Shown: positions 3,713 to 32,117 of the stretch, one piece after another
Layout: every line of letters begins with the position of its first letter
Position numbering within the stretch: the first letter of the stretch is position 1
From: a virus
Taxonomy: Duplodnaviria; Caudoviricetes
Reading direction: 5' to 3' (one strand)
DNA: 40,082 nucleotides
Virus record (IMG/VR): IMGVR_UViG_3300030397_000885
Location: 1 to 40,082 of that record
Translations under genes and position numbers: made by a program
Notes under the pieces: model-generated
Told to the model about the DNA's origin: nothing
The model's database searches: none
The model's input: the letters and a program-made list of their open reading frames with translations, nothing else

Positions 3713-3970
3713 TCAGGATTTCTTTGTAAGCTTATCCGCAAATTGCAGCAGCTTTACAATCTGTAAATCCAGATCAAAATAGCTATTGCGCAATGCTTCG
3801 GCCAGGTGTTCCCTCTCCGGTAATCTCCGGCGTCCGTGCCCATCTTCCATGACAATGATCGATCCACTCACCAAGCCCTGGTGAACATCGATTTTCCTGT
3901 ATAACTTTTCTTTAATCTTTGCCAGTCTACGCTGGTCTTTCGTGAGGGTATTACGGTTGGAGTTAGCCAT
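3713..3970 (-). CDS. Small orphan protein of antisense cassette 1 (paralog of 23999..24253)
   Basis: 85 aa, strong SD AGGAGG. Similar to 23999..24253: MANS..LT..Q..L.KI...LY..D.H.G.VSG....ME......EA...LR.S...LD..IVK.L.F..KLT. Confidence 0.85.
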   Translation of the reverse strand: MANSNRNTLTKDQRRLAKIKEKLYRKIDVHQGLVSGSIIVMEDGHGRRRLPEREHLAEALRNSYFDLDLQIVKLLQFADKLTKKS

Positions 3971-4006
3971 GATGGCCTCCTAGAAATTTTAGCAGTACAT
4001 AAAAAT

Positions 4007-4101
4007 AGCCGAGTTTTGCTAACGCTCTCTAGGAGGCGCTCCACCCCTCACGGATGCCTTACGGCACGCCCCGGGCGACCGGGACAGCGGAAAACTCGGC
4101 T
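4007..4101 (-). ncRNA. C4/CI-like antisense RNA, copy 1
   Basis: Closing stem AGCCGAGTTTT/AAAACTCGGCT with internal hairpins including CC-GTAA-GG and CC-GTGA-GG. Unpaired boxes GCCTCCTAGAGA and TTAGCA are complementary to sites at 3975-3994 (SD) and 4161-4176. Confidence 0.8.
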
Positions 4102-4125
4102 TTATGAATTAATAGTGCTGTACAT

Positions 4126-4210
4126 AAAAAAGCCGCGAGATATTGCGGCGGATTATTCCGCCTAGAGATATTAGCACTTTGAAATTAGCAAAGTTTTTTG
4201 TTGATAGCAA
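4126..4210 (-). promoter_or_regulatory. Cassette 1 promoter, operator, upstream antisense target and attenuator
   Basis: TTGCTA-17-TAATTT; operator CTTTGA-N5-GCAAAG at 4177-4193; hairpin GGCGG/CCGCC overlaps terminator GCCGCAA-tatc-TCGCGGC-T6. Confidence 0.7.
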
Positions 4211-4211
4211 G

Positions 4212-4646
4212 TTATTTGTCCCCCCAGTCAGCGTTAATTAGGGCAATTTGCCTTAATAGATTAGAATCCCAGGTAGTTGGGTATTTTAAATCTGTCCAGT
4301 GAATGAGCTTCCCCACAAAATCTTTATCAAACCACTCAAAAAACTCGGCGACACTGGGGAAACCATCCCAAGAGGCCAGCAGCTGCAAGTCATTTGCGGA
4401 TAAATTTTCGCCATCCACGGTTACCTGGGGTGTCCAGAAAGGATTGGACGAATATTTAATCGATATTTTCTGCACAGATACGCATTCGTCGATCATAAAA
4501 CAGTCATAATTCGGCGTTCTAACGCCTGTTGCAAAATGAATCACCCGCCCCGCTTGCCAGCGATTATTCCGGTCTTGCCTGATGGTATGAATTTTTATCC
4601 CGGCAAGTATTTGAGGTTTAAATTGGTTGTAAAATCCGAGTATCAT
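4212..4646 (-). CDS. ASCH/PUA-like domain protein
   Basis: Start reassigned to MILGF. Contains the ASCH-type motif F.P.IL.G.K.HTIR and later LASWDGF. Confidence 0.7.
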   Translation of the reverse strand: MILGFYNQFKPQILAGIKIHTIRQDRNNRWQAGRVIHFATGVRTPNYDCFMIDECVSVQKISIKYSSNPFWTPQVTVDGENLSANDLQLLASWDGFPSVAEFFEWFDKDFVGKLIHWTDLKYPTTWDSNLLRQIALINADWGDK

Positions 4647-4647
4647 T

Positions 4648-4911
4648 TTAATTTTCCACCGAAATTGTATCATCGAATTCATCTTCAAGCTTAATGGCAT
4701 CATCCAGAACCGAAAAGATGTTTCTGGCAACTTGATCTAAAAGCTCTATAATCTCTGTCAGAAATCCTTTTATTTCCTTAGGGTCTGTTTCGGTTTCTAA
4801 TGCTTCGCAAGCCTGTAATGCATCACTCATGTTACTTTCATATTGCTGGATACCTTCGGATACGACCTCCAAAAGTATTTGATTGACTTTCTGTTTTTTG
4901 ACCTCATTCAT
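4648..4911 (-). CDS. Hypothetical acidic helical protein
   Basis: Tightly packed in the early operon; start probably MNEV. Confidence 0.55.
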   Translation of the reverse strand: MNEVKKQKVNQILLEVVSEGIQQYESNMSDALQACEALETETDPKEIKGFLTEIIELLDQVARNIFSVLDDAIKLEDEFDDTISVEN

Positions 4912-5119
4912 CCGGCTGCCCCTTTGAAATTTCGATTTCTGTATCTTGCCATTCGCCATCTATGGCTGTTCGATCAGTCATGAAATCACCGATAAGATCA
5001 TCAAATTCCTGCTCCGACAGATATTCTGCTTCTTGCAGAAGTTGTTCATATTCTGCCTGGCACATCTCTACATATTTGACGTGCCGTTCAACCTTCGTAA
5101 TGCTCATTTTGACTATCAT
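4904..5119 (-). CDS. Hypothetical protein
   Basis: SD GAGGAG; overlaps the next gene. Confidence 0.6.
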   Translation of the reverse strand: MIVKMSITKVERHVKYVEMCQAEYEQLLQEAEYLSEQEFDDLIGDFMTDRTAIDGEWQDTEIEISKGQPDE

Positions 5120-5136
5120 GGTTCACTCCTCTATCG

Positions 5137-5544
5137 TTATTTGTTGGTGGTTGATTGTTGATCGTTGGTTATCACTCCATTAACTATTATTTTAAAGGCT
5201 TTGCCGCCGACGCTTGATTGCATTGCTTTAAAAACTCTTGGAATCATTAATTTGAATTTATGGGCACGTTTCATTCTTGCGAAAATGGCTATCAATTGAC
5301 ACCCATTTTCGTTGAAAATTCGTGTAACTTGCTTCCCACCATTCGAATCACTTTTAACCAAGGCTGAACACCTTTCAAGTGAAAACTTGTGCCGTTGAAA
5401 TATTTTATTTATTGCAATTCTCGGATGGCTATATCCTATTACTTGACCAAGTTTTGCAGATGTCATCCAAAACTCACCTTTATACAGAATAAAATATGAG
5501 TCTGCCAAAAGTAGTTCCTTTGTCAAATCGCAATTGTCTTGCAT
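5137..5544 (-). CDS. Bro-N domain (antirepressor-type) protein
   Basis: FWMTSAKLGQVIGYSHPRIAINKIFQRH...GGKQVTRIFNENGCQLIAIFAR. Confidence 0.75.
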   Translation of the reverse strand: MQDNCDLTKELLLADSYFILYKGEFWMTSAKLGQVIGYSHPRIAINKIFQRHKFSLERCSALVKSDSNGGKQVTRIFNENGCQLIAIFARMKRAHKFKLMIPRVFKAMQSSVGGKAFKIIVNGVITNDQQSTTNK

Positions 5545-5649
5545 ATGACCGCTCCCAATTGATATAATATCCCGGGAGATGCCCAGCCCCCGGTGTGTTC
5601 AAATAAAGGTTTTTATTTAGCTTCCCGGCGGGCAACACCGGGAAGTTTT

Positions 5650-5868
5650 TTACAGCATAGCTTCCTTTATTGCCTCCAATTCGGGAGCCTTATCAAGGCT
5701 ACGTAAATACCGCCTGAAAATCCCCTGGCGAACGCCTTCACGTAATACAATGACAACCTTTGGGAATGTCCTCTCTACTGTGCCGGTGTGCAGAACAACT
5801 TCCTTTTTCCCATTGCCAAATTCAACCTGGAGCCACTTCACCGGCTGGCCCTTGATGTAATCACTCAT
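5650..5868 (-). CDS. Hypothetical small beta-rich protein
   Basis: Start MSDY forms an ATGA overlap with the upstream stop; SD GGAGG. Confidence 0.55.
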   Translation of the reverse strand: MSDYIKGQPVKWLQVEFGNGKKEVVLHTGTVERTFPKVVIVLREGVRQGIFRRYLRSLDKAPELEAIKEAML

Positions 5869-6122
5869 GATGCCTCCGCAGTTAATTTGTGGACAATTCT
5901 CTCGCGAGTTAATGGATACGCCATAGTGCGTGAATTGCGGGGTATAATTATACACCCGTTCAATAGCGGGTTAGTATTAATCATCGCCTGAGCTTCCTGG
6001 CGGCTTATAAATAGCCGGGCATTCAAAATATTTGCGGATAATATGACCTGCTGCCGTTCATATCGCTGAACTTTTACAAAATATCTCCGCACTCTATCAA
6101 CGGTTTTTACTATGACAAACAT
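5865..6122 (-). CDS. Hypothetical protein
   Basis: SD AAGGA; operon packing. Confidence 0.55.
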   Translation of the reverse strand: MFVIVKTVDRVRRYFVKVQRYERQQVILSANILNARLFISRQEAQAMINTNPLLNGCIIIPRNSRTMAYPLTRERIVHKLTAEAS

Positions 6123-6144
6123 GATTCCATCCTTTTTTAGTAAG

Positions 6145-6441
6145 CTATAAATCCTTTTTAGAAGCGTTATTTAAGACGATTTCCAGAACCCTGGCCAGTG
6201 GCTTTTCCAGGGCACACAGCTGGCAAACAATAATATCCTTTTCCGAGGAGACCGCTTGCGCGGCATCGCTGCCATCGCCCATGACGGTTGCTAATCCGGG
6301 ACTACCCAGCATCGCGGCTAAGCCGGCATGTTGTTGGATGACATTAAAATTAATCAACATATGCTCAATGCTGGCCCGGTAAAATGCCGGGGCGATTTTT
6401 CCCCCGCAGCAGTCGCAGGGTCTAATATCTGTTATATTCAT
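6145..6441 (-). CDS. Hypothetical Zn-binding protein
   Basis: CDCC and CQLC motifs; ATGA overlap with the HNH gene. Confidence 0.65.
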   Translation of the reverse strand: MNITDIRPCDCCGGKIAPAFYRASIEHMLINFNVIQQHAGLAAMLGSPGLATVMGDGSDAAQAVSSEKDIIVCQLCALEKPLARVLEIVLNNASKKDL

Positions 6442-6881
6442 GGCGCCTCCTCGAACAGATCCCGCACGGCCAAAAACTGGTTTTTCTTTTCGCGCTTGCG
6501 GCGCTGGTTGTCTTTCCGGTCATGATTTAAATGGCAGCGCTGGCAGAGTGCCGCCAGGTTGGCCGGGTCGTTGTTTGTGGTGTCCTGGTCCAGGTGCGCC
6601 ACCGTCAGAATGATCACTATGTATTTGGGACCGCCCGTCTCAAAACGGTTATAGTAAACAGCCAAATTTCGCGCCAGTTTATAGGGCAGCTCTCCCTGCC
6701 CCGCGGAAAACGTAATGTTATCTGGTCCTACAGCCGGGATAAATTTGCCGGTAAAATCCCGGTAGCCCAGGGCATAGTTAGGCACATTGCAGAATTTGCA
6801 ACGATTGCCTTCCCGCTGCCGAATGGCCTTGCTAATTTCACCCCAATTTTTCGGGTATTTTTTTAGTTGATCTTTAGTCAT
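6438..6881 (-). CDS. HNH endonuclease-like protein
   Basis: Start reassigned to MTKDQ (SD AAAGGA). YP.NW..IS..IR...CKFC ... LTVAHLDQDTTNNDPANLAALCQRCH. Confidence 0.8.
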   Translation of the reverse strand: MTKDQLKKYPKNWGEISKAIRQREGNRCKFCNVPNYALGYRDFTGKFIPAVGPDNITFSAGQGELPYKLARNLAVYYNRFETGGPKYIVIILTVAHLDQDTTNNDPANLAALCQRCHLNHDRKDNQRRKREKKNQFLAVRDLFEEAP

Positions 6882-7066
6882 GTTAATTCCTTTAGGCTCC
6901 CCGGAGATCATCCCTCCGGGAGCATCTCTTTTATCGTCTATTGGGGCAAGCTGCTCATTTCTGGCATGAGTGCCTCGAGTGTTTTTAAGGGCCCCGTTCC
7001 CCGTTTCCATAAGGAGGATGATTCCTGGAAACTAAACCCAACAGCTTGTTATCCCCTCTCTGGGGT

Positions 7067-7152
7067 TGGCCGACTGGCAGGACTTGAACCTACGACCTCT
7101 GGGACCCGGTTTCCCGTGACCCAGCGCTCTACCCAACTGAGCTACAGCCGAC
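7067..7152 (-). ncRNA. tRNA-like RNA with no anticodon loop (extended arm capped by GAAA)
   Basis: Acceptor (G)TCGGCTG/CAGTCGG(C); D arm GCTC-AGTTGGGTA-GAGC; T arm GTAGG-TTCAAGT-CCTGC. The anticodon stem CTGGG/CCCAG encloses 16 nt (TCACGG-GAAA-CCGGGT). Confidence 0.8.
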
Positions 7153-7166
7153 AGATGATATATCAT

Positions 7167-7655: not shown

Positions 7656-7834
7656 CCCTGGTTTTGTTGTTAATAATGACCGGGCCGAAGCCCGGTGCCC
7701 AGTCCGTAAATACAGTAAATTGGGGTTTACGATTAATTAGGGACTGGTATATTTTCAACACTCCCCTGCCCCGCACCGCCTACCAATTAGTTAATTGTGC
7801 GGGGCAGGTTTGAATTATCCCATCGACTGAGGGT

Positions 7835-8038
7835 TTAAGGGGAGCGTTTATTTCTGCTCAATTGCCAGGCCAGGTAATTCTTGAAGTTCAGATACGCCAT
7901 CCCATTGTTGAAGATGATCGCCAGCATCGTGCCGTGGCCTTCCGGAGGCGCCTGGTCGCCCAGGGCCAGGAAAGCCACCGCAGCATCGGAAAGCAGTTTC
8001 GTGTCTACGCTATGCAAATTTTTAAAATCATCCATCAT
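7835..8038 (-). CDS. Hypothetical protein
   Basis: SD AGGAG; 67 aa. Confidence 0.55.
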   Translation of the reverse strand: MMDDFKNLHSVDTKLLSDAAVAFLALGDQAPPEGHGTMLAIIFNNGMAYLNFKNYLAWQLSRNKRSP

Positions 8039-8416: not shown

Positions 8417-8819
8417 TACGCCAGCCCTCCCCTTTTAACGGACCGAACATCTCAAAAACCGCCGGCGTGGTGTTCACTCTGCCCGCTTTTTCCAGCAGGT
8501 GCGCCCAGCCAAATAGCTCTTGCAAACTGATGCGCCATTGCCGGGCAATCTCGCGCAGTTTTTTCCCTTTGTTTAAAGTTAGTTCGATCATTAACTGGTT
8601 AATGAATATGCTGGCCTTAGTGCCGGCAGTTTTGAAAAGTATCGTCCTGGCGCAACCGGCGGTTAAGCGGTGCCTATCCGGATTGTAGCCCTGGGTGGAT
8701 GCAAAGCCATCCCCCGGGCCAGTGTAATTAACCAACACCAGTGGCACGCTGGTATTAATCCGGTTTTGCAGCCCGAGAAAGACACAGTTCGGTTTGGATT
8801 GGTTCGGCTGGTTCATCAC
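8409..8819 (-). CDS. Hypothetical protein with possible C-terminal HTH
   Basis: LREIARQWRISLQELFGW segment; overlaps the recombinase stop. Confidence 0.55.
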   Translation of the reverse strand: MMNQPNQSKPNCVFLGLQNRINTSVPLVLVNYTGPGDGFASTQGYNPDRHRLTAGCARTILFKTAGTKASIFINQLMIELTLNKGKKLREIARQWRISLQELFGWAHLLEKAGRVNTTPAVFEMFGPLKGEGWRNV

Positions 8820-9553
8820 TGCCTCCCTGAGTGTTTGCCGCTCATAATGGCTTGGTACTCTTCATGCGTTATATTGAGCGTTAGATGCTCATACCAGAGC
8901 AAATTGTTGATATTGCGATGTCTACTTATTTTGCGCACCTTCTGAATTGGCATCCCTTTTTCCAGTAGGTAGGTTATCGTTTGGTGCCGGAATGTTTTCG
9001 GCGATGCCCAGGGCTTCCCGCTTTCCGGATCTACGATGTTGGCCAGCTTTAGAAAGTGTTCCATTTTTTCCTGCACAAAGCGCACGGAAATCGACTTGCC
9101 GGCCCGCCGTGGAGAAGGAAACAACCAGAAGCTATCGGGATGCCGGGCGATCTGCTGGCGGATCGGCAATGCCAGTTCCGGGGTAAAAGGCACCTTGCCG
9201 GAAAAGCTGTCTTTTTCCGCATTTATGAAGACATTGAATAAATTAAAATCGAAGTCGGTCACCTTAATATTGACCAGCTCCCCCACTCTCACGGCCGTGG
9301 CCAGCAACAGGCGGAAGATTAATTCCATTTGTGGGTCTTTATCAGCTGCGACCGCCACAAAAAAGCGCTGCAGTTCATTCTTGGTGAACAGCCGCGGTAA
9401 TTTGCGCGGATGCCGGCTTTTCTTAATCCCTAAAACCTGTCGGGCATTTTGTACTGCCCGGGCAATATCATCGTAAGACAGATCGTTTTCACGGGCCTGC
9501 CTTACGATGTATTTGGTCATAGTGTTAATGATGTCTGATTTATTAGCTTGCAT
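8816..9553 (-). CDS. Short tyrosine recombinase (second recombinase)
   Basis: Box I TAVRVGEL; box II PKTFRH (K in place of H); SRH...LLWY with catalytic Tyr. The N-terminal region is only about 50 aa. Confidence 0.8.
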   Translation of the reverse strand: MQANKSDIINTMTKYIVRQARENDLSYDDIARAVQNARQVLGIKKSRHPRKLPRLFTKNELQRFFVAVAADKDPQMELIFRLLLATAVRVGELVNIKVTDFDFNLFNVFINAEKDSFSGKVPFTPELALPIRQQIARHPDSFWLFPSPRRAGKSISVRFVQEKMEHFLKLANIVDPESGKPWASPKTFRHQTITYLLEKGMPIQKVRKISRHRNINNLLWYEHLTLNITHEEYQAIMSGKHSGRQ

Positions 9554-9576: not shown

Positions 9577-10317
9577 TTAAAGACTGTTGTTTAGATTTGA
9601 GTAAGTGATATCATCGTCTGCCTGCTGCTTCTGATGTCCGTTTTTGCTCATTTCATTTAAGTAATTACGGACAGTCTCTTTGGCAACGCCAACAGCATCA
9701 GCCACCTCCTGCAAACTGGCATCTGGATAGGCCGTTTTGTAGTTCCTAACTGCGGCCATTCTAGCTGCTTTATTGTTGGCGATGGTTTTTCGACCTTTTC
9801 CCTGGGCAGCAATTAACGGATTGGCCGCCACTACCACAGACTGCGGCTTAATTTCCGGCTGCCTGGCATTCTGGCGAAGCTCAACCAGGTTACGGGTGCC
9901 GATAGTATCGCACATGACATAAGCCAGCACCGGAAAGATGACCGTGCCGGTAAGCCACTGGGTAATGATTAACCAATCCTGTTTAATAAGATTTGCGTAG
10001 GTTAGCTGAATGCCATAGGCAGAAACGAATCCCTCCGCCATGTTGGCAACGCCGGAAGCGATTAAAACCAATGCAGTAACTACGCGGACCATCCAGGCCA
10101 ATTCGCCATCCTTGATTAGCTCATCTTTAAAAATCGACATGGCCACCACGCCGGCATCGATGGCGAAAGCGGCGACAGCGCCGAGAACAATCGAGCCATA
10201 AAAAAATTGACTCATAAAAGTGGTGCTGTGCATGAATGTGGCGGTAAGTATGCCGATTAAACAGAGTGCCCCGGCCCGGTATTTCACCAGCTCCCGGAAC
10301 TTGGAATTTTTGTTCAT
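9577..10317 (-). CDS. Multi-pass membrane protein with C-terminal HTH (DUF2637-like)
   Basis: About 4 TM segments (AFAIDAG...ASGVANM), then SLQEVADAVGVAKETVRNYL. Confidence 0.65.
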   Translation of the reverse strand: MNKNSKFRELVKYRAGALCLIGILTATFMHSTTFMSQFFYGSIVLGAVAAFAIDAGVVAMSIFKDELIKDGELAWMVRVVTALVLIASGVANMAEGFVSAYGIQLTYANLIKQDWLIITQWLTGTVIFPVLAYVMCDTIGTRNLVELRQNARQPEIKPQSVVVAANPLIAAQGKGRKTIANNKAARMAAVRNYKTAYPDASLQEVADAVGVAKETVRNYLNEMSKNGHQKQQADDDITYSNLNNSL

Positions 10318-10538: not shown

Positions 10539-11324
10539 TTAGCTCCTTGCTACATAGCCATGGGTTCGTAAACTGATAAAGTCGCTGATGGCCTGTTGAG
10601 GAATTCTGTTTTCTCGGGCAATTTTTTCGGGAGTTTCGCCGCCTAACGCCATTTTAGCTGCTGCCTTCAACGTGCTAACAGTTACCTTTTCCGGTTCTTC
10701 CTCCTGTTCGCTGGCAATAGCCCATAGTAATTTTTTGATATCAGATGACGAGACAAGATCATCGCCATCAACCGCAGACCAAATATTCTTGTCGTTGAGA
10801 AATTCCTGGTGCAATACCGGGTAGAGCTCCACGATATGTTTAACTTTTGCCGGGGAAATATTGTAAATCTGTGCAATATCCTTTGCTTTCATGTATTCTG
10901 AAACCATGAATATTTGGCGGCACTTAGCAATATCCAGGTGGGCAGTGTTACGCAGGATGGACTCAAACTTCTTTCGTTGGTTTTCACTTCTGATTTCAAC
11001 CAAGAAATTGGAAATCGCTATCCGGAAGATTAGTGCCTGCTCTGTTTTTGCAAACATCGCCAGAATATGACACCCATGATCTTGGAAAACACGCACCAAT
11101 CTCCGCTGCCCCTGCACTATTATTTTCATTGTGCAGGTATATGGTTCTAGCTCCCTTTTATTACGTTCATAAAGTTGGCTAATACTTGCACCAGGATTCT
11201 GATATCCGATCAATTCCCCGAGCTTCGTAGATTCCATCCAATACTTGCCATTTTTGTAAATAAAATCATCAGTGGTTAACACCAAGGCTTCCATTAAACT
11301 TTTTTGAGGTTGTTCATTACTCAT
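10539..11324 (-). CDS. Bro-N antirepressor-type protein with C-terminal HTH-like segments
   Basis: YWMESTKLGELIGYQNP...LYERNKREL...RVFQDHGCHILAMFAKTEQALIFR; later AKDIAQIYNIS and PEKIARENRIP. Confidence 0.75.
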   Translation of the reverse strand: MSNEQPQKSLMEALVLTTDDFIYKNGKYWMESTKLGELIGYQNPGASISQLYERNKRELEPYTCTMKIIVQGQRRLVRVFQDHGCHILAMFAKTEQALIFRIAISNFLVEIRSENQRKKFESILRNTAHLDIAKCRQIFMVSEYMKAKDIAQIYNISPAKVKHIVELYPVLHQEFLNDKNIWSAVDGDDLVSSSDIKKLLWAIASEQEEEPEKVTVSTLKAAAKMALGGETPEKIARENRIPQQAISDFISLRTHGYVARS

Positions 11325-12628: not shown

Positions 12629-12781
12629 ATGCCTAAGGATAAAGGCAAGTTTCATGAGGCTAAGGAGGCCTCAGAGGTTTCGGAGATTATGGAGAGGTTG
12701 AAGCAGCTGAACAAATCACAAAGGGCGAAAGTTTGGCAATATATCCAAAGATTGAAGAATGAGCCAGTTATACGAGAATAA
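12629..12781 (+). CDS. Unannotated 50-aa protein resembling the repressor C-terminal helix
   Basis: SD AAGGAG at 12618-12623; MPKDKGKFHEAKEASEVSEIMERLKQLNKSQRAKVWQYIQRLKNEPVIRE; overlaps the integrase start. Confidence 0.7.
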   Translation: MPKDKGKFHEAKEASEVSEIMERLKQLNKSQRAKVWQYIQRLKNEPVIRE

Positions 12782-13805
12782 CGGCCGTTACTACATTGCT
12801 TTCTATTATCAGAAAAAGCAATATCGGCGCGCGTTGGGTTTCCGGTCGCGCTCTGGGGAGAGACCGATCAATAAGCATCACGCCGAAGAAATACAGTTGA
12901 CGATCGATCTGGATTTAAAGCGGGGCAAATGGCCTGCTTATTTCTCGCAAGTATCCGCTGGCCGCTCAGTAGCGGAGTTCAAGGATTACTATATCCGGAA
13001 CTTAAGCAAGCAGCGCCACAAATTCAGCGCAAACACGTTGCGGAACTACGGCTATGCCTTCAACCGCCTGATGGAGGTTGTGGATCCACAAACGGATATT
13101 GGGAATATCGATACTGCGCTGGTGCATCGGGATCTGCTCCCCCACCTCGAAGAAAACTATGCCTGGAATACCATTCGGGGATCTCTCATTGCCTTAAAAG
13201 CCGCCTGGAACCGGGCAATACAGTGGCAGCTGGTCAAGGTGAATCCTTTTGAAGGATTGAATACCAAGCCGAAAAAGCGCATCCCGAAATTTTACACCGT
13301 TGAAGAAATTCAGGTGATCCGGGAGTATTGCGCCAACCCCGCAATTCCCGCCTGGCTGGGTGATATTGTTTTTTTGGTGCTTAATACCGGCTTGCGCCGG
13401 CACGAAGTGGTAAACCTGTTCTGGGGAAACATCAACCTGGCCCTGGGCAGCATGACCTTTTCCGGTAAGGGAGATAAGGAGGACGTGGTGCCGCTAAACC
13501 CTGCCGCATTGGAGATATTACGCGCGCGCCCCCGCAAGCCGAATAACCGCCGGGTATTCTGGGAAATAGAAAACTTCGAGGCCTTTGCCACTGGCTTTAA
13601 ACGCCTGCGGCAGCGTACCGGGCTTGGTGGAAATATCCACCAGCTGCGGAAAACATTTGCCTGTCATTTTATGATGAATGGCGGCAGCATTTACGACCTG
13701 CAGAAGCTGCTCCGCCATGAAAGCCTCGACACGCTCAGCGTCTACGTTACCCTCTCCCCCGATTATCTTAAGTCCGCCGTAGAGAAAGTAAACTTCGGCA
13801 AGTGA
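12759..13805 (+). CDS. int: Phage integrase (tyrosine recombinase)
   Basis: N-terminal arm-binding region; TGLRRHEV, GKGDK, HQLRK, LRH...YV motifs; adjacent attP. Confidence 0.92.
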   Translation: MSQLYENNGRYYIAFYYQKKQYRRALGFRSRSGERPINKHHAEEIQLTIDLDLKRGKWPAYFSQVSAGRSVAEFKDYYIRNLSKQRHKFSANTLRNYGYAFNRLMEVVDPQTDIGNIDTALVHRDLLPHLEENYAWNTIRGSLIALKAAWNRAIQWQLVKVNPFEGLNTKPKKRIPKFYTVEEIQVIREYCANPAIPAWLGDIVFLVLNTGLRRHEVVNLFWGNINLALGSMTFSGKGDKEDVVPLNPAALEILRARPRKPNNRRVFWEIENFEAFATGFKRLRQRTGLGGNIHQLRKTFACHFMMNGGSIYDLQKLLRHESLDTLSVYVTLSPDYLKSAVEKVNFGK

Positions 13806-13806
13806 A

Positions 13807-14048
13807 TTTATCTTATAATTATCTTGCAAAGTGCGAAATTATGCAATCATGCGCAATGGTGTGCGAAATATAAGTATATTTAATTATTCGCAATTACAGG
13901 TAAGCGTTATACTTAAAGAAAGCCTTAATTCCACTTCGGGACGGTGAGGCCGGAGGTTCAAATCCTCTCGCCCCGACTCAATAAAAACAAAGACTTAAAC
14001 CCGCAAAGAGATTTGCGGGTTTTGTCGTTTTATCTTATGCTTATCATG
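13807..14048 (+). mobile_element. attP: tRNA-Pro(CGG) 3'-half core flanked by arm-type repeats
   Basis: Core 13935-13976 is TTCGGGA-CGGTG-AGGCC-GGAGG-TTCAAAT-CCTCT-CGCCCCGA with no 5' tRNA half. Paired TTATCTT/TTATCAT repeats at 13808, 13819, 14030 and 14041. Confidence 0.85.
13997..14023. terminator. Bidirectional terminator between int/attP and the late operon
   Basis: AAACCCGCAAA-gaga-TTTGCGGGTTT. Confidence 0.75.
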
Positions 14049-14052
14049 AATT

Positions 14053-17000
14053 TTATTGAACTCTGGAATATTGGAGGGCTATTTCGGTAGATTTTAACGC
14101 ACGTTTGTATATTGCTATTTCATCCATCCACCCTTTAAAATTGTTCGATGAACCCCCAAATTTACCAATTGACAAGGCTGCAATATTGGCACTTGTTCCG
14201 GAAACAGATGAATAACTTTTCTCGCCCACAAAGACACCATCAACAAAAACCATCATTCTTTCAAAAACATCTTCGTAAACGACATGGAGCATATACCACT
14301 GGTCAACATTTAGTGTGTAACTGCCAGGGGTATCCAACGCAAATGATGAACCATCACCATAAAAAGTTTCGAATTCGTCGGTCCCGGAATTAATTGCTAT
14401 TTGATATCCGTCTGTTCCTGACCGTTTAACACATATTTGGTGCGCTCGGCTGAAACCTACGGCATCGTCAAATTTCACAACCATTGCAATAGTGAAAGAG
14501 CTATCAAAGTCCACGGTGGATGTATCCGCTAATTCCAGGTAGTCCGTGGATCCATCAAAATACATTGCTTTAGAGGTGGTATTGTCAAAGTAACCATTGG
14601 CATAACTCGGCGTGCCGTTTACCGTCAACACATGCCCGCGCTCCTCTTTTGTCGTATCCTCCAGTAGTAACTGAAAAACGACACTGTCACCATCAAAGAA
14701 CTCATTAAAAACATAGGTTGGCGTTGCTTGGTATAGTGATTGTGGATAAACCATCCGCTCGTAATCGTCGACTATTGTCTGCCGAGATCTTAAAGTATCC
14801 CAGGCAATCACTTCTGCAATTAGTCCCTTAAAATAAACAGTAGTTCCCGAACTTCCCAGAAAGAAGTCTCCGGAGTTGTCCATCCCCCCGGTTACATTCG
14901 AAAAAGATGTCCGGGCAAAAAATTGACTATTCGTGTATATCGTAATACTGTCCGCAGTTTGGTCAACGACCCAGTGGATCATTTGCCAAGTTAAAGTGTC
15001 GCTTAGAACTCCAAAAGCTGTCTTCGTGTTTGTTCCATCTCCCAAAAAGGCTTCTGGTCGCCCATTGGTTGTATTAAGACTTAAATGGTAGCCATCATTA
15101 CCTGATCTTTTCCAAAATATTTGATGGTTGCCACTCCGAAAAGGTTTGATTATTGCCGCAACAGTAAAATCGCCGGTAAAATCTAAAGCAGGTGGATCCG
15201 TTATTTTTATATAGCTAGCATCATCAAAGTATAAAGAACGGGTGCCACCGGTTGGGCCATCTCGAAAATCATCAAGTGGTCCGATACCTGTCAAGGTATG
15301 GCCCTGGGTTTCGATGATTTGGTTGTTAAATGTAAAATGAACAACAGTGTTTTCATCATCATCCCAGATTGAGTTTGCTTTATTAAGCAATCCCTGGGGG
15401 AAAGCCCGAAATTCCTTATTTATATATTTTACCAGAGTATCCGGGGTATCAACTGTGCCAGGCTTGAAATATTCAGCCCCCTCTTCCCCGCCCAGGGCAG
15501 AAGTAGAAATGCGTTTGGCGTTGAATTTACCCGTTGCCATTCTTGGAAATAATGGGGCATTCCTCACCCTTAAAATTCGACTGTTACGGTCAACACCTGA
15601 AGCATCAGTACTTATAGTTGTTGCTGAAGACCAGGATTGCATTCCGTTCGTAGAAATGCCATAGTGAAGGCCATCACTGCCACCAGTGATTAAATCATCT
15701 GCATAAAGATGGTATAAGGTATCTCCGGATATGTGAACGATTTCAGGCCCCTCGTATCCAGTACCAAAACCACTAATACTTCCCTGGTAGCTATAACCGT
15801 GATCTATGTAAAGCGACGTTGAATAACCGATAGTTCCTGTTATCGCAGCAGAATAATCGTTGTAATACAGATAGTAAAGGCTATCTTTTTTAATAATAGT
15901 GCCATCCTGCCAGTGCTGGGGAAAATCCCCAGATATCATCTGAAAATCTGCCCATTCAGTAAGATCAGCAGTAAGCGGCTGAGTGATATACATCCGAAAG
16001 TCTGTCGAATTTACCCTGCGCACACCCACAATGATGTATATATCGCCATTGTCATCGACAAAAAAACGCGGAGACCATGTTTTTTGCACATCCGTCCAGG
16101 GAACACTGATAGTATCATGCTCCACCCAATTCACAAGATTTTCACTTCTTGCAATGGCAAAATAACCATTTGAACCAATACTCCCAGCGGTGAAACATAT
16201 ATAAAAATTCCCATCCTGGTATTGAATCGGCGAAGGATCACGTAGATCATTGTCCCCGAATCCAGTTTCTGATACTACTTTCCAGTTTATAGCATCGAAA
16301 CTATGAGATATACGCAGGTTCTGAGGAGAACTAAAACCGAACATTAAATAGGAATCAATCGGCTTGTAACCATAGAAAACACGTTGCAATGAATCAAGAT
16401 AAGATGTGTGTATCTGGAGTGAATCATCAACTACCTGAATGGTGCTATTGTCTGCTGGCGACCCTCCCCCACTTCCGCCTGTTGAATTAAAATAAACTGT
16501 ATCGTTACTTGTCGTAATGGTGGCATTACTACCATTCGCGAAAACCAAACTATCCGCGGTGATATTCGTGGCATTTACCCGTATGTTTTTAATCACCTGG
16601 TTATCCCCAATATCCGCATTGGTAATGGATCCATCGGATATCTCAGATGTACCCACCGCGTCGGCGGATATCTCGTTACTGCCCACGGCATCATTGGCGA
16701 TCTGAGCGGCATCCACTGCCCCATTGGCTATTTTTGCCGATGTTACAGACTGGCTTTGCAGCTTTGCGGTAGTAACAGATAAGGCTGCCAGCTGGGCGGC
16801 ATCTACCGCTCCATCGGCAATGTGGGTGCCGCTTACCTGGTCATCGCCGATCATCGCACCGGTAACCGCATCATCGGCAATATGGCGGGAGATTATGGCA
16901 TCATCCGCGATCTCTGGTCCCTTAACGGCTCTGTCGGCTATATTCGTAGAATCGATGGCATCATCGGCTACTTTCGCGTTGGTAACGGCATCAATGGCCA

Positions 17001-23926: not shown

Positions 23927-23998
23927 AACCCGTCCCTGGGCAAACACTTACCGGGCAGTTGCCCGGCAAGCGGTATATTGAGTGGGGGATGGGGAAAG

Positions 23999-24253
23999 TT
24001 AGCCGGTCAGCTTTTCGGTGAATTCCAGTATCTTAACAATACGGTTATCCAGCTTCTGGCTGCTAATCCGCAGGCCTTCCATAATTGCTTCCTGGTCGTA
24101 ATGCCTGCGGACGACCTTCGGCCCATCGTTATTTTCCATGTAAAGAAGCGCGCCACTCACCATTCCGTGGTGAATGTCCAAAGATTCGTAAAGCTGTGCG
24201 CGGATCTTCTGGAGTTTTTCCTGCTGCCTGGGGGTTAATTTGGAGTTTGCCAT
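23999..24253 (-). CDS. Small orphan protein of antisense cassette 2
   Basis: Paralog of 3713..3970; SD AGGAGG. Confidence 0.85.
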   Translation of the reverse strand: MANSKLTPRQQEKLQKIRAQLYESLDIHHGMVSGALLYMENNDGPKVVRRHYDQEAIMEGLRISSQKLDNRIVKILEFTEKLTG

Positions 24254-24288
24254 GATGGCCTCCTGTAGATTTTAGTAAGAAGTAAAAA

Positions 24289-24383
24289 AGCCGAGTTTTA
24301 CTAACGTCCCACAGGAAACGCTCCGCCCCTCACGGTCACCTTACGGATCGCCTGGCAATGCCAGACTAGCGGAAAACTCGGCT
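24289..24383 (-). ncRNA. C4/CI-like antisense RNA, copy 2
   Basis: Same closing stem and GTAA/GTGA hairpins as copy 1. Boxes TTCCTGTGG and TTAGT are complementary to ACTAA...CTACAGG upstream and at the SD. Confidence 0.8.
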
Positions 24384-24407
24384 CTATAATTTAAATGCTG
24401 CGTACAT

Positions 24408-24493
24408 AAAAAAAGCCGCGAAATATTGCGGCGGATCGTTCCGCCTGTAGGTTTTAGTGCTTTGATAATAGCAAAGTTTTTGCCTTTTTTCAA
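24408..24493 (-). promoter_or_regulatory. Cassette 2 promoter, operator, upstream target and attenuator
   Basis: TTGAAA-17-TATTAT; CTTTGA-N5-GCAAAG at 24460-24476; GGCGG/CCGCC hairpin overlaps GCCGCAA-tatt-TCGCGGC-T7. Confidence 0.7.
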
Positions 24494-27951: not shown

Positions 27952-28025
27952 TACAATATCCTTTTTATTTACAGACAAAAATCATTACTGCCCATTTAAA
28001 GGCGACTGAATGAAATCAGCCGCTA

Positions 28026-28988: not shown

Positions 28989-29050
28989 TTTTATCTACCT
29001 CCATGTAGATTTTTAAAATGAATTATTTACAGGGTTAACGAAACCGGTTT

Positions 29051-29410
29051 TTAGAGCGGTTTCAGTTCCACGGTAATAAAATCACCGTCGGCGCTGGCTG
29101 CATCGATGGCCCGGCCGCAAATTTTCATTACATCCGCAACCGCAGAAACCGTCAAAGAGACCGCTTTGCCATCGGCATCGCTGGAAACAAACGCACCGGC
29201 ACTAATGGCGCCACCGGCTTCCACTTTTACCCGGCCAATGGATTCCACCGTCACCGGTTTACCGCTGTCCTGGTCGAACAGGGCAACACCGCTGCAAGGG
29301 ATGTCCACGGTATGTTTGCCGTCCCAGGTCACAAACCGCTGCTTGGTAATCGCTTCCGTAGCGACAATGGTCAGTGGCATAACGCCTAAAGTTTGATATT
29401 CTTGTGCCAT
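29051..29410 (-). CDS. Capsid decoration/cement protein (DUF2190-like)
   Basis: GVAL...G...VEAGGAISAGAFVSSDADGKAV...GRAIDAASADGDFI. Confidence 0.75.
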   Translation of the reverse strand: MAQEYQTLGVMPLTIVATEAITKQRFVTWDGKHTVDIPCSGVALFDQDSGKPVTVESIGRVKVEAGGAISAGAFVSSDADGKAVSLTVSAVADVMKICGRAIDAASADGDFITVELKPL

Positions 29411-29466
29411 TTTCTACATCCTTGTTAAATGGTTATGATTTAAAATGTCTTAACAAATTTCAGCCG

Positions 29467-29973
29467 TTAAGCGACAACCAGTTTAATCGCTTCGTTATAA
29501 GTAAGCTTTGGGTTTTCCTTCATTTTACCCAGGGCGGCTTCATGCAACTCGGCACGCTCAGTGTCTTCCGAAAAGGCCTTCTGGTTCGGGTTGCCTTTAT
29601 CCTTCGGCGTATCGGCTTTTTCATCGAACGGCACAAGCAGCTTGTCATCTTTAGCAGCTGCTACCAGCGTTTCCACTAATTTTTTGGCGGCGGCCAGCTG
29701 GTTGGTTTTACCATCGGAAAATTGGTGATCGGTTTCAGCATCCAGGCATTCCAGGAACTGCTGCAAGGATTCATCTACCAGCGCCGGGGCGATGCCATCC
29801 TTTTTTAACGCATCACAAAAGGCCTGAATATCTTCCTTGCGTTGCTTTTCGCGGAATTGGGCCATTCGGTCATCTGCGGCAGTTGCTCTTCTTGCCGCTT
29901 CTTCCGGGGTCATCCCATGCGTTGCCTGGAACTGGGCAGTGTATGCCGCCTGATCAAATTGAACTTCGGACAT
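29467..29973 (-). CDS. Internally initiated scaffold protein
   Basis: In-frame ATG (MSEVQ) preceded by TAAGGAG-N6. Confidence 0.65.
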   Translation of the reverse strand: MSEVQFDQAAYTAQFQATHGMTPEEAARRATAADDRMAQFREKQRKEDIQAFCDALKKDGIAPALVDESLQQFLECLDAETDHQFSDGKTNQLAAAKKLVETLVAAAKDDKLLVPFDEKADTPKDKGNPNQKAFSEDTERAELHEAALGKMKENPKLTYNEAIKLVVA

Positions 29974-30654
29974 CTTGTTCTCCTTAAATTTATTTGCTGC
30001 GTCACTTAAAAGATTGGTGCCATCATTCAGCACCGCTTTTATATTTTCACTTTTATCAGCATCGGCATCATCGCCGCGCAAAATTTTTTCGATGTTTTCC
30101 ATCATCCGCCAGAATATTTCCCGGATCCCGGAGAGCTTTTTGTCGGCATCTATTTGCAACTCCAGATTAACGCCGTCAAAATGCAGCCAGGTTTTCCCAT
30201 CTTCCGGGGAAACCGTCTCGGAGAAAACCTCCATCACGGGCAATTTATGATAGGGAGATGTGCCGCCCAGCAGGGCAAGTGCGGAAAAGCGATGATCTTG
30301 GGGATTTACAAACTCAACAGAACGGTGGGGATATTCTTTTTTTCGCAGGCTTTCAAATGTTTCCGGATGGATATTGGTAATATCAGCAATCATCACATCG
30401 CCATTCAGCCGGATATTTTCCAGAAATCCCCTGCTGGGTTTTTCTTCGCCGCCCGGCTGGTTATGCCCGATAATTACAGATGGGCGGTAACCATTCTCCT
30501 GGAGATCGGCATGATTAGCAACCGTAGCTTTGCCCCAATCATCGGAGTAATTAAAGCCTTTGTGCTTCCCCAGGCGAAAAATTTCCACGCCCTGTATATT
30601 GTAGGTGCTGTCATCGTTCTGAGTGGTTGGATATTCCTTAAAAGCTTTCATCAC
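29467..30654 (-). CDS. Prohead protease-scaffold protein (Mu gpI-like)
   Basis: VEIFRLG, VIIGH, YPHRSVE and ALALLG motifs; helical C-terminus. Confidence 0.8.
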   Translation of the reverse strand: MMKAFKEYPTTQNDDSTYNIQGVEIFRLGKHKGFNYSDDWGKATVANHADLQENGYRPSVIIGHNQPGGEEKPSRGFLENIRLNGDVMIADITNIHPETFESLRKKEYPHRSVEFVNPQDHRFSALALLGGTSPYHKLPVMEVFSETVSPEDGKTWLHFDGVNLELQIDADKKLSGIREIFWRMMENIEKILRGDDADADKSENIKAVLNDGTNLLSDAANKFKENKMSEVQFDQAAYTAQFQATHGMTPEEAARRATAADDRMAQFREKQRKEDIQAFCDALKKDGIAPALVDESLQQFLECLDAETDHQFSDGKTNQLAAAKKLVETLVAAAKDDKLLVPFDEKADTPKDKGNPNQKAFSEDTERAELHEAALGKMKENPKLTYNEAIKLVVA

Positions 30655-30746
30655 TACATCCTTGTAGTAAAAAACTTTCCTGCGGATATGGCGCCGCAGG
30701 AAAGTAGGGAGTTGGAACTGCGGTAAATAGGATCACTTTCGTCTAT

Positions 30747-30795
30747 AAAATAGAATCAATTTTTAGCCATGTCAATATTTTTTATTGACTTGGCA
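30747..30795 (-). promoter_or_regulatory. Late-type promoter with bipartite operator (protease/capsid operon)
   Basis: TGCCAAGTC-N12-TGACATGGC; TTGACA-17-TATTTT. Confidence 0.7.
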
Positions 30796-30798
30796 TTT

Positions 30799-31098
30799 CT
30801 ATATCAGCACCGTGGCCGCGGCGATCATCGCGCCGAGAACATCCCCAAAGGCATCCAGGAAGAAATGCTGCCGCGGGGAAAGGAGCTCCGCTATGCCATA
30901 ACCGGATTGCCGCCAGCCCCGGATGGTATTGTAGAGAAACTCTACCACCTCCCAGCCAACTGCGGCGATAAAGACATTTAAAAAGCCGTCCGGTCCTTCG
31001 GCGCCCAGCCAGAGAGAAAATTTTGCCAGAACAGCGCCGCCCAGGATGTGCAACCATAGCCAGACGTTGCGCAAAAATGCATATTGAATAAAAGCCAT
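30799..31098 (-). CDS. Small membrane protein
   Basis: Start MAFIQ (SD AAAGGA); 3 hydrophobic segments with H..GG, WEVVE and D...D motifs. Confidence 0.65.
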   Translation of the reverse strand: MAFIQYAFLRNVWLWLHILGGAVLAKFSLWLGAEGPDGFLNVFIAAVGWEVVEFLYNTIRGWRQSGYGIAELLSPRQHFFLDAFGDVLGAMIAAATVLI

Positions 31099-31132
31099 CA
31101 GGAATCCTTTCCTTAAGTTTAATCCTGGCAGT

Positions 31133-31181
31133 ATGATAGGAAATGTTTTTTGACAAGGCAATAAAAAATCCCGACATGGCA
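31133..31181 (-). promoter_or_regulatory. Late-type promoter with bipartite operator
   Basis: TGCCATGTC-N12-TGCCTTGTC; TTGCCT-17-TATCAT. Confidence 0.65.
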
Positions 31182-31221
31182 ACCATATCGGGATTGGGGG
31201 AGGGAATGGAGAAAGTGTTTG

Positions 31222-31602
31222 TTATTTTTCTCTTAAGGCCTTCGCTTTCTCAAAGATTGGCAATATTTCATTTTCAATTTTTTGAAACTCATCTTCGGGC
31301 AAAGAATCCAACCAATGCAAATTCCCAATCGTTTCCCTTAAGTTTACAATCTGAGAATGAATTGAATCAGGGTCGATGTAACGCCCTGCATTTTTGGGGG
31401 AAAAATGTTCCAAAGCTTCATTAACCCAAAAAGCATGTAACTGCCTGGGAGAATAGTTTTTTAGTCTCACCATATCCCTTTCTCCCAGGCTTTCCAAATC
31501 CTCGGCCATATCGGCCAATGGCACATCATTCATATCTGGGAAAACGGTGTGAGCAATATTGAACATAAACTGATACAATGTCAAACGATCTAAGTTTTTC
31601 AC
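31222..31602 (-). CDS. Hypothetical protein, second gene of cassette 3
   Basis: GTG start with SD AAGGAG. Confidence 0.7.
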   Translation of the reverse strand: MKNLDRLTLYQFMFNIAHTVFPDMNDVPLADMAEDLESLGERDMVRLKNYSPRQLHAFWVNEALEHFSPKNAGRYIDPDSIHSQIVNLRETIGNLHWLDSLPEDEFQKIENEILPIFEKAKALREK

Positions 31603-31613
31603 AGTCTTCTCCT

Positions 31614-31916
31614 TTATGACTTCCGGTTAAAGTTTGGAATTTTCTCCCGCAGATCGTCAATATTCTGCGCGGGCGGCGGGGTAATATCTTCCAGGAAATT
31701 TTGGGTTTCCGTAATCAAATTACTTAAATCTTTGGTGGCCCACCAGAGTGCATCAAAATCTTCTTGTTTTATCTCGCCGCCGGCTTCGTTGTAGTGGGTC
31801 ATTAAGCAGACCAGCTGCGAAACAACCACACTGCGGTGGGTGAGCTTTTCGTGGAGCGTTTCCACGTATTTCTTTTCGATGATGCTTTTCCGGGGTGATG
31901 GGTTAATTGCAGGCAT
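31614..31916 (-). CDS. Small orphan protein of antisense cassette 3
   Basis: SD AGGAGG lies inside the antisense target; helical; at most remote similarity to the other two cassette ORFs. Confidence 0.8.
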   Translation of the reverse strand: MPAINPSPRKSIIEKKYVETLHEKLTHRSVVVSQLVCLMTHYNEAGGEIKQEDFDALWWATKDLSNLITETQNFLEDITPPPAQNIDDLREKIPNFNRKS

Positions 31917-31949
31917 AGTGCCCTCCTATTGGTTTTTTCATAAATAAGT

Positions 31950-32012
31950 TGCCAGGTGCTGAAAACGCCCAATAGGAACGCCCCGCGCCTTACGGAAACG
32001 GGACACCTGGCA
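31950..32012 (-). ncRNA. C4/CI-like antisense RNA, minimal copy 3
   Basis: Stems TGCCAGGTG/CACCTGGCA and CCCG/CGGG, hairpin CC-GTAA-GG. Boxes TTCCTATTGGG and TTTCA are complementary to TGAAA...CCAATAG upstream and at the SD. Confidence 0.75.
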
Positions 32013-32038
32013 TTTTTATAGTCGTATCCGCTATAAAC

Positions 32039-32117
32039 AAAAATGCCGCATTACGGTGCGGGGCCGCTATTGGGTTCTTTCATTTGTAATATATCAAACA
32101 CTTTGATACTGTCAAAG
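32039..32117 (-). promoter_or_regulatory. Cassette 3 promoter, operator, upstream target and attenuator
   Basis: TTGACA-16-TATATT; CTTTGA-N5-TCAAAG at 32101-32117; CCGCA/TGCGG hairpin with T-run. Confidence 0.7.

What the first reader, a model, noticed from the sequence alone, without database searches (positions are those of the whole stretch)
3713..32117. Three dispersed, apparently orthogonal C4-like antisense-RNA-gated gene cassettes in one phage
Seen: 3713-4210, 23999-24493 and 31222-32117 share one layout on the minus strand. It runs sigma70 promoter, target 1, competing hairpin/terminator, structured RNA with a CC-GTAA-GG hairpin and a two-box unpaired bulge, target 2 over the SD, then a small ORF. 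The boxes co-vary at all three positions in each cassette. Cassette 1: TGCTAA..TCTAGG vs CCTAGA..TTAGCA. Cassette 2: ACTAA..CTACAGG vs CCTGTGG..TTAGT. Cassette 3: TGAAA..CCAATAG vs CTATTGG..TTTCA. Known: this matches the P1/P7 C4 (a1b1/a2b2) and P4 CI (seqA/seqC) logic, which gates icd-ant or kil. Inference: each RNA silences only its own cassette. That would give a multi-channel RNA lock allowing a transient burst of orphan proteins in cells lacking the matching RNA, usable as kin recognition, superinfection response or addiction. The cargo is not recognisable as Icd, Kil or Ant.
Basis: partly seen in the sequence, partly recalled or inferred. Interest (0 to 1): 0.88.

Follow-up and report, generated by a model that had tools for sequence, protein, structure and literature searches.

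The report
Three self-specific RNA locks, one phage
A temperate phage carries three small gene cassettes, each with a folded RNA whose two exposed boxes match only its own cassette and which likely lets a tiny unknown protein be made briefly on entry into a new cell before shutting it off, a known phage P4/P1-type switch that is unusual here mainly in being present three times with different keys.

Summary
All three minus-strand cassettes have the phage P4 CI / P1 C4 layout: promoter, target 1 overlapping an anti-terminator hairpin, terminator, three-stem RNA, target 2 over the Shine-Dalgarno, small ORF. A covariance model built from three non-window relatives finds exactly these three. About 40 relatives keep the structure and co-vary their boxes with their own targets (own downstream target best or tied in 19 of 24, and 15 of 16 held-out copies). 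The RNAs are a divergent branch of Rfam c4-2: cassette 3 scores 25 bits (cut-off 41), a relative 47.5; cassettes 1 and 2 have an extra two-arm insertion. In the 3x3 pairing model the cognate pair wins in every row and column, but shared anti-SD pairing leaves room for leak. Several copies with different boxes per bacterial genome are common, and phage or island precedents exist, so the boxes likely diverged between elements and the phage collected three morons. Cargo are orphan two-helix proteins; a P4 epsilon-like derepressor is only a lead. No expression data. The scan earlier noted a single c4/IsrK lock on other DNA. New variant of a known kind.

The parts
4182..4210 (-). cassette 1 promoter-like site (TTGCTA, 17 nt, TGn-TAATTT), weak match
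   Evidence: sequence; not listed by the consensus scan
4161..4176 (-). cassette 1 target 1 (b1 TGCTAA, a1 TCTCTAGG), seqA-like
4147..4162 (-). cassette 1 anti-terminator hairpin H1, overlapping the a1 box and the terminator's 5' arm
   Evidence: folding
4126..4149 (-). cassette 1 intrinsic terminator (P4 t1-like)
4007..4101 (-). cassette 1 antisense RNA, 95 nt, expanded P2, P3 loop CCUCCUAGAGA, bulge UUAGCA
3976..3994 (-). cassette 1 target 2 over the SD (TGCTAA..TCTAGGAGG), seqC-like
3713..3970 (-). cassette 1 ORF, 85 aa, predicted two-helix hairpin, 44% identical to cassette 2 ORF
   Evidence: no family hit
3652..3673 (-). terminator after cassette 1, before the primase gene
24465..24493 (-). 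cassette 2 promoter-like site (TTGAAA, 17 nt, TGn-TATTAT)
   Evidence: sequence
24444..24458 (-). cassette 2 target 1 (ACTAA..CCTACAGG)
24409..24445 (-). cassette 2 anti-terminator H1 and overlapping intrinsic terminator
24289..24383 (-). cassette 2 antisense RNA, 95 nt, expanded P2, P3 loop UUCCUGUGGG, bulge UUAGUA
24259..24276 (-). cassette 2 target 2 over the SD (ACTAA..TCTACAGGAGG)
23999..24253 (-). cassette 2 ORF, 84 aa, orphan paralog of cassette 1 ORF
23947..23970 (-). hairpin after cassette 2 without a long T run, at the start of the tape-measure gene
   Evidence: sequence only
32088..32115 (-). cassette 3 promoter-like site (TTGACA, 16 nt, TGn-TATATT)
   Evidence: sequence
32067..32082 (-). 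cassette 3 target 1 (TGAAAG..CCAATAG)
32039..32068 (-). cassette 3 weak H1 and overlapping terminator
   Evidence: switch margin small
31950..32012 (-). cassette 3 antisense RNA, 63 nt, compact c4-2-like form, P3 loop UCCUAUUGG, bulge UUUCA
31922..31940 (-). cassette 3 target 2 over the SD (TGAAAA..CCAATAGGAGG)
31614..31916 (-). cassette 3 ORF1, 100 aa; 73% homolog P0003 on an unseen 40.8 kb contig; feature-level lead to the P4 epsilon (Derepression) family
   Evidence: lead not confirmed
31222..31602 (-). cassette 3 ORF2, 126 aa, orphan, likely co-transcribed
31160..31195 (-). terminator-like hairpin with T run closing cassette 3
   Evidence: sequence

Best explanation
Each of the three cassettes is a self-contained copy of the phage P4 CI / P1 C4 layout whose RNA boxes match its own two targets best, and each likely works as an entry timer that would give a short pulse of a small helical protein, most likely a derepressor or growth modulator, and then silence itself. 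Shown by sequence and comparison: the layout, the three-stem RNA fold and the cognate box matching. Inferred steps: (1) the cassette promoter fires when the DNA enters a cell; (2) with no RNA present hairpin H1 forms first and hides the terminator's 5' arm, so transcription reads through the RNA and the ORF; (3) the RNA is processed out and accumulates; (4) its P3 loop and bulge bind target 1 on new transcripts, strip two pairs from H1 and let the terminator form, which sets the RNA's own level; (5) they bind target 2 and cover the SD, so the ORF stays off in the lysogen and in any cell that already holds the same key. The keys most likely diverged by selection between mobile elements (as P1 versus P7), and this phage collected the cassettes as morons; cassettes 1 and 2 share a recent ancestor. 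For the cargo I put an epsilon/Ant-like derepressor of resident repressors at about 35%, a Kil/Icd/SymE-like growth inhibitor at about 30%, other or inert at about 35%.
For: Same anatomy in the P4 record, down to target 1 ending in AGGCG before a T-run terminator and the second target over the kil SD. Family structure: 16 of 22 pairs with double-sided changes, 96.6% of cells paired, 0 of 500 shuffles as high (alignment fitted to the model). Own target best or tied among 24 elements in 21 of 24 (upstream) and 19 of 24 (downstream); in 16 copies outside the model's training set 11 of 16 and 15 of 16. Window 3x3 model: cognate pair best in 6 of 6 rows and 6 of 6 columns. Blocking target 1 weakens H1 from -10.9 to -3.9 kcal/mol in c1 and c2; it weakened the early hairpin in 14 of 16 hand-picked leaders with a clear target 1. 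Same RNA gates AntA and Bro-N antirepressors in other phages. Moron signs: c1/c2 identity 78% in leader+RNA, 61% in the ORF, 52-56% in the flanks; relatives sit in a tail module, beside IS1595 transposases and a type I RM gene; four related records hold one copy each.
Against: No expression or processing data exist for this phage. In equilibrium folding the terminator forms about as well without the RNA (c1 -12.8 vs -11.8, c2 equal, c3 -6.7 vs -6.6), so the switch relies on folding kinetics, and in c3 H1 is weak. Non-cognate pairing at target 2 is substantial (c1 RNA on c2 and c3: -13.6 and -12.5 vs their own -18.2 and -16.6). The c1 promoter is a poor consensus match. The epsilon lead is one score of 0.89 and was not confirmed by the family HMM or profile comparison. 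Cargo families in relatives are not detectably homologous to the window's. L004, L207 and L117 lack a clear downstream target.
Confidence: 0.72

Rival explanations
1. The three locks are a coordinated three-checkpoint immunity system: because they are co-oriented inside the lytic transcription units, just upstream of the primase, the head protease/capsid genes and the tape-measure/tail genes, their RNA-dependent terminators would also stop read-through into replication, head and tail modules in lysogens and in superinfecting kin.
For: Positions: c1 directly before the primase, c3 shortly before the head protease and capsid, c2 directly before the tape measure, all on the same strand. In P4 the CI circuit heads the operon that ends in the alpha primase (PMC4825925 passage). 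No long T run follows the hairpin after c2.
Against: c1 and c3 end in their own terminator-like sites, as morons do. The phage has a CI-like repressor and integrase. A 40.8 kb contig carries a c3 ORF homolog while no c1/c2 ORF homolog was found (that contig was not seen). Related phage records have one copy.
Confidence: 0.12
2. The cassettes are selfish type I toxin-antitoxin-like addiction modules: the RNA is the antitoxin, the helical protein the toxin, and different keys let several coexist.
For: Of 15 ORFs picked behind canonical C4 and sRNA-Xcc1 RNAs, 6 are SymE-family type I toxins. Copies are dispersed and multi-copy in chromosomes. P4 kil and P1 icd are growth inhibitors (recalled).
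Against: No toxin family matches the window's cargo. The circuit makes the ORF mRNA mainly when the RNA is absent and terminates it otherwise, so a long-lived silent mRNA pool needed for post-loss killing is not evident (inference).
Confidence: 0.25
3. The locks cross-react and act as one pool, the box differences being drift.
For: All loops share CCU anti-SD pairing; c1 and c2 b-boxes differ at one position that G-U can bridge in one direction. Two copies in G108 have identical boxes, so orthogonality inside one cell is not obligatory.
Against: Changes are compensated at three sites per cassette; cognate pairing is 4-15 kcal/mol better; a 4-nt difference separates P1 and P7 (PMC5320573 passage citing Citron and Schuster).
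Confidence: 0.12
4. Some or all cassettes are decaying remnants with no present function.
For: c1/c2 ORFs have no homolog outside the window; weak c1 promoter.
Against: All stems, boxes, SD sites and ORFs are intact in all three; c3 ORF is 73% conserved in another contig.
Confidence: 0.07

Closest known systems
Phage P4 immunity circuit (seqA/IsrK-like leader, terminator, CI RNA, seqC, kil, epsilon)
   Same: Order of parts, RNA downstream of its own terminator, loop plus bulge boxes, second target over the SD of the first ORF, target 1 ending in AGGCG (passages).
   Different: No sequence-level match of model R2 to P4 CI; boxes on the targets lie 2-4 nt apart rather than being split by a hairpin; three free-standing copies rather than one at the head of the replication operon; cargo is not Kil/Ash.
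P1/P7 C4 RNA (Rfam RF01695) with a1b1/a2b2 targets gating icd-ant
   Same: P1/P2/P3 topology with tetraloop, a' loop and b' bulge; specificity set by a few box nucleotides.
   Different: RF01695 does not hit the window; the RNase P GGW start described for C4 is not evident; P1 has one lock (recalled).
c4-2 RNA (Rfam RF02944, clan CL00128; Weinberg 2017, PMC5737381)
   Same: Same topology; c3 hits at 25.3 bits (E 1.1e-4 for one genome); 4 of 16 relatives hit, one above cut-off.
   Different: All three window RNAs are below the cut-off; c1 and c2 have a roughly 30-nt two-arm insertion in P2 and are not hit. The paper's supplementary text on c4-2 could not be read, so what it says on targets and gene context is unknown to me.
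Multi-copy C4-type RNAs: 21 in Acinetobacter baumannii AB5075 (PMC5320573); sRNA-Xcc1 (RF02221) and C4 clusters in Xylella (PMC12189769 Table 4); APSE phages with c4, isrK and an extra sRNA-Xcc1 (bioRxiv 2020.03.17.996009)
   Same: Several C4-topology RNAs in one genome, island or phage, with variable a' loops.
   Different: Those passages do not analyse each copy as a lock on its own adjacent gene nor test mutual specificity; here three complete circuits with distinct keys lie in one 40 kb phage.

Membership tests
C4/CI antisense circuit (works like) | Three-stem RNA with tetraloop P2, loop a' and bulge b' | tested here: met
C4/CI antisense circuit (works like) | Two complementary target sites, upstream and downstream of the RNA, the second over the ribosome-binding site | tested here: met
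C4/CI antisense circuit (works like) | Intrinsic terminator between promoter and RNA, switchable by target 1 | tested here: inconclusive
   terminator and overlapping H1 present; equilibrium margin near zero, so kinetic
C4/CI antisense circuit (works like) | Mature RNA processed from the precursor (RNase P) and repressing in trans | not testable with these tools
   no RNA run listed
C4/CI antisense circuit (works like) | Gates Icd/Kil/Ant | tested here: not met
   window cargo has no family hit; relatives gate AntA and Bro-N
Rfam C4 RF01695 | Score at or above 45 bits | tested here: not met
   no hit at E<=1; R2 does not hit P4 CI or four canonical C4 loci
Rfam c4-2 RF02944 | Score at or above 41 bits | tested here: not met
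   c3 25.3 bits, c1/c2 no hit
Rfam c4-2 RF02944 | Homology by transitive search (shared model with above-cut-off members) | tested here: met
   R1/R2 hit both the window RNAs and L118, which scores 47.5 bits on c4-2
Rfam sRNA-Xcc1 RF02221 | Score at or above 53 bits | tested here: not met
   c3 25 bits, E 1.1
P4 epsilon / Derepression PF25738 (cargo) | Sequence or profile match | tested here: not met
   no HMM candidate in the genome; hhalign probability 0.1-0.35; language-model features 0.89, 186 of 256 shared, lead only
Type I toxin-antitoxin | Cargo toxic, neutralised by the RNA | not testable with these tools
   needs expression test

The most novel reading that the evidence does not exclude
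The three orthogonal RNA locks are a coordinated system: each places an RNA-activated terminator ahead of one lytic module (primase, head, tail) and releases an epsilon-like derepressor pulse on entry, so the phage reads three independent keys in the host cell to tell kin lysogens from naive cells and to wake or bypass resident prophages.
Probability: 0.12. Interest if true: 0.8.

Novelty: new variant of a known kind. Interest (0 to 1): 0.42.

Why it matters
It extends the P4 CI / P1 C4 circuit, studied in a few enterobacterial phages, to a divergent c4-2-like branch that Rfam mostly misses, and shows it as a portable moron that gates antirepressors or small helical proteins in phages and beside transposons. 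About 40 natural loop/bulge key pairs with compensating targets, three of them coexisting in one genome, give a ready test of how few nucleotides make antisense locks orthogonal and a compact 63-95 nt riboregulator set for synthetic biology. It also points at an open question: what the many small two-helix proteins behind C4-type RNAs do.

Tried and rejected
Protein routes to relatives failed: c1 ORF, capsid and c3 alignment in IMG/VR and GTDB contigs; only P0003 in 1.84 billion representatives, plus one repeat protein rejected as artefact; no c1/c2 homolog in the 90% clusters (length-limited). Narrow DNA patterns found nothing. Pattern hits rejected as chance: 3 of 7 viral, 89 of 90 genome (L075 weak and without targets), 75 of 87 metagenome loci (the 12 strong hits collapse to 8 elements, 5 new), and 6 of the 9 hits of the second viral pattern (the other 3 were loci already found). 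blastn of cassette 3 against 50,697 phages: no match. R2 found nothing in 5 single genomes or 151 genomes of the phylum of G160 (only 33 candidates scored per genome), and 3 of 151 in the phylum of G001. My first target-1 window for c3 was misplaced; one search replaces it. Structure search of the helical hairpin gave only generic coiled coils; Atlas search for c2 ORF gave scores of 0.77 only. Cargo groups A2, A10, A11 are not detectably homologous. Complex prediction of c3 ORF with the phage's CI-like repressor: no answer. No RNA holder listed among sequencing runs; laying contigs showed no box variants, only c1/c2 cross-mapping. The RNA tree is mostly unresolved; c1+c2 join at 87/76, unstarred. 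The host could not be assigned. Literature searches found no paper analysing several mutually specific C4-type locks in one phage; the library lacks most subscription papers, and Citron and Schuster 1990 and Briani 2000 were not read.


Full report
Context. The window is a whole virus record of 40,082 bases, estimated 98% complete, from aquatic metagenomes of one study. It is a temperate tailed phage: integrase at 12759-13805 with a tRNA 3'-half-like sequence beside it (read by eye), divergent HTH regulators, Mu-like portal, head protease, major capsid, tape measure, primase. The host is unknown. Cassette 1 lies between a gene of unknown function (phrog_8581) and the primase, cassette 2 between the genes that follow the tail-tube-like gene and the tape measure, cassette 3 between moron-like genes and the head protease; all are on the same strand as their neighbours.

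Observation. The layout and all box sequences are as reported. A pattern over the conserved core matches three times in the window and never in 100 shuffles, though it was derived from these copies. It found true relatives elsewhere. A covariance model made only from three of those relatives (R1) recovers exactly the three window RNAs; a 22-sequence model (R2) gives them E 2e-12 to 9e-9 with the next hit at 0.74. c1+c2 and c2+c3 each lie on single contigs of public runs that may be the window's source.

Anatomy. Each RNA has a 10-11 bp closing stem P1, a P2 arm ending in CC-GNRA-GG, a 4-5 bp P3 hairpin whose loop is the a-box, and a 5-nt bulge that is the b-box. c3 is the compact 63-nt form; c1 and c2 (95 nt) carry about 30 extra nucleotides in P2 that fold as two further arms. 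Across 22 family members 16 of 22 pairs show double-sided changes and 96.6% of cells pair, above all 500 shuffles and all slid controls (the alignment is fitted to the structure). Target 1 begins at the predicted start of transcription; its last two G residues are the first two pairs of hairpin H1, whose 3' arm overlaps the terminator stem. Blocking target 1 drops H1 from -10.9 to -3.9 kcal/mol in c1 and c2; in c3 H1 is weak either way; at equilibrium the terminator is as stable without the RNA, so the switch must be kinetic. Blocking target 1 weakened the early hairpin in 14 of 16 leaders that I picked for a clear target 1. The P4 record shows the same order of parts, a seqA ending in AGGCG before a T-run terminator and seqC over the SD of the next ORF, as described in passages of PMC4825925 and PMC3632133. 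That P4's first terminator autoregulates CI is recalled from Briani 2000, not read.

Specificity. With a simple two-box score, an RNA's own flank was best or tied among 24 elements in 21 of 24 cases upstream (mean 12.1 vs 9.0, sd 1.2) and 19 of 24 downstream (12.8 vs 8.0, sd 2.0); in 16 further copies outside the training set, 11 of 16 and 15 of 16. In the window, summed loop and bulge duplex energies favour the cognate pair in all six rows and six columns (target 1: -20.8, -16.0, -11.0; target 2: -23.5, -18.2, -16.6 kcal/mol), but c1 RNA still reaches -13.6 and -12.5 on the other two SD targets through its anti-SD loop. These are duplex estimates, not kissing-complex measurements. A 4-nt difference suffices between P1 and P7 according to a passage of PMC5320573.

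Family. Rfam gives no C4-clan hit in the whole-library scan, but c4-2 hits c3 at 25.3 bits (cut-off 41) and 4 of 16 relatives, one above cut-off. R2 does not hit P4 CI, four canonical C4 or four sRNA-Xcc1 loci. So the RNAs work like C4/CI, are not members of RF01695, and are best filed as a divergent branch of c4-2, which PMC5737381 calls a likely distant homolog of a described RNA (passage; supplement unreadable, and it may already describe targets or gene context). Relatives occur in phage contigs, in a prophage tail module of a MAG deposited as Bacteroidetes, in 7 of 151 genomes of its class and 12 of 21 genomes of one order, up to five copies each. Not found in 151 genomes of another phylum.

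Cargo. The window's ORFs match no Pfam, PHROGs or NCBIfam family. c1 and c2 ORFs are 44% identical, c3 ORF1 24% to c1; c1 is predicted as a two-helix hairpin (pLDDT 81) with only generic structural matches. The one outside homolog is P0003 (73% to c3 ORF1) on a 40.8 kb contig that I could not see; no c1/c2 homolog turned up. The Atlas ranks the Derepression family PF25738 first for c3 ORF1 (0.89, 186 of 256 features). P4's helper derepression protein epsilon has the model's length, 95 aa, and lies just behind the CI circuit; that the family is epsilon's is my inference, and neither the HMM nor hhalign confirmed the link. In relatives the same RNA gates AntA and Bro-N antirepressors or 70-100 aa proteins with a Pro/Thr-rich tail and two predicted-looking helices that form at least two families not detectably related to the window's. 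Behind canonical C4 and sRNA-Xcc1, of 15 ORFs picked, 6 are SymE toxins and 1 AntA, and 5 are XAC0095 family.

How special is three in one phage? The four related records searched whole hold one copy each (two are 62-64% complete). In bacterial chromosomes several copies with different boxes and paralogous cargo are common (G158 three, G108 five, two of them 5.5 kb apart around IS1595 transposases and two sharing identical boxes). Canonical C4 and sRNA-Xcc1 behave alike (up to 11 per genome; two C4 333 nt apart). In print: 21 C4 RNAs with variable a' loops in one Acinetobacter genome (section read); five sRNA-Xcc1 in 1.6 kb and two C4 plus one sRNA-Xcc1 within 11 kb in Xylella (table passage); c4, isrK and an extra sRNA-Xcc1 in two APSE phages (passage). 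I did not test box specificity in those published cases. I found no paper treating several mutually specific locks in one phage. c1/c2 similarity falls from 78% in leader+RNA and 61% in the ORF to 52-56% in the flanks, as expected for inserted modules.

Verdict. Real, well supported, mechanism known in kind. The best reading is three independently keyed entry-pulse morons of the CI/C4 type (0.72); rivals are addiction modules (0.25, partly compatible), a coordinated three-checkpoint immunity (0.12), cross-reacting locks (0.12) and decay (0.07). New variant of a known kind; interest 0.42. Papers seen: PMC2864571 passages and supplement passages; PMC5320573 passages and one section; PMC5737381, PMC12197685, PMC12189769, PMC7067206 (not used), PMC4825925, PMC3632133 and bioRxiv 2020.03.17.996009 passages only (74, 103, 104, 105, 119, 142, 108).

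Noticed in passing
L236-L265 (G462, G482, G533, G549, G572, G579): sRNA-Xcc1 (RF02221), described as a trans-acting virulence sRNA, has C4 topology, and in most copies read its loop and bulge match a two-box site upstream, before a T-run terminator; the downstream ORFs include SymE toxins and XAC0095 proteins. It may be an unrecognised C4-type lock with mainly an upstream target.
   Followed up: partly
L273:1635-1835: A canonical C4 RNA with both targets sits directly on a SymE-family type I toxin gene.
   Followed up: partly
L114-L125, L213-L228: In one bacterial order the family's P3 loop pairs with the start codon region instead of an SD (targets such as GCACT-ATG), matching the absence of SD sites in these genes.
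   Followed up: partly
L229, L230, L231, L232 (G108): Cassettes lie beside IS1595 transposases, a type I restriction R gene and an IrrE/DDE module.
   Followed up: partly
window 13806-14053: attP-like stretch with what looks like the 3' half of a tRNA next to the integrase; a full tRNA-Pro(CGG) is at 7068-7151.
   Followed up: no
window 5137-5544 and 10539-11324: Two Bro-N/Ant antirepressor-like genes that are not preceded by this RNA.
   Followed up: partly
window 8816-9553: Second, short tyrosine recombinase in the early operon.
   Followed up: no
window 100-260: Run of about 11-nt GTCACAAC-type repeats in both orientations downstream of the primase, a likely replication origin.
   Followed up: no
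window 4125: All public contigs have one more A here than the window, so the cassette 1 terminator T run is probably one base longer.
   Followed up: yes
window 9577-10317: Membrane-plus-HTH gene of which several diverged copies exist on other contigs of the same samples.
   Followed up: no
window leaders 4176-4126, 24458-24409, 32082-32039: The terminated leaders (about 45-50 nt) correspond to P4 SeqA / IsrK and could act as sponges or trans activators (inference from passages).
   Followed up: no
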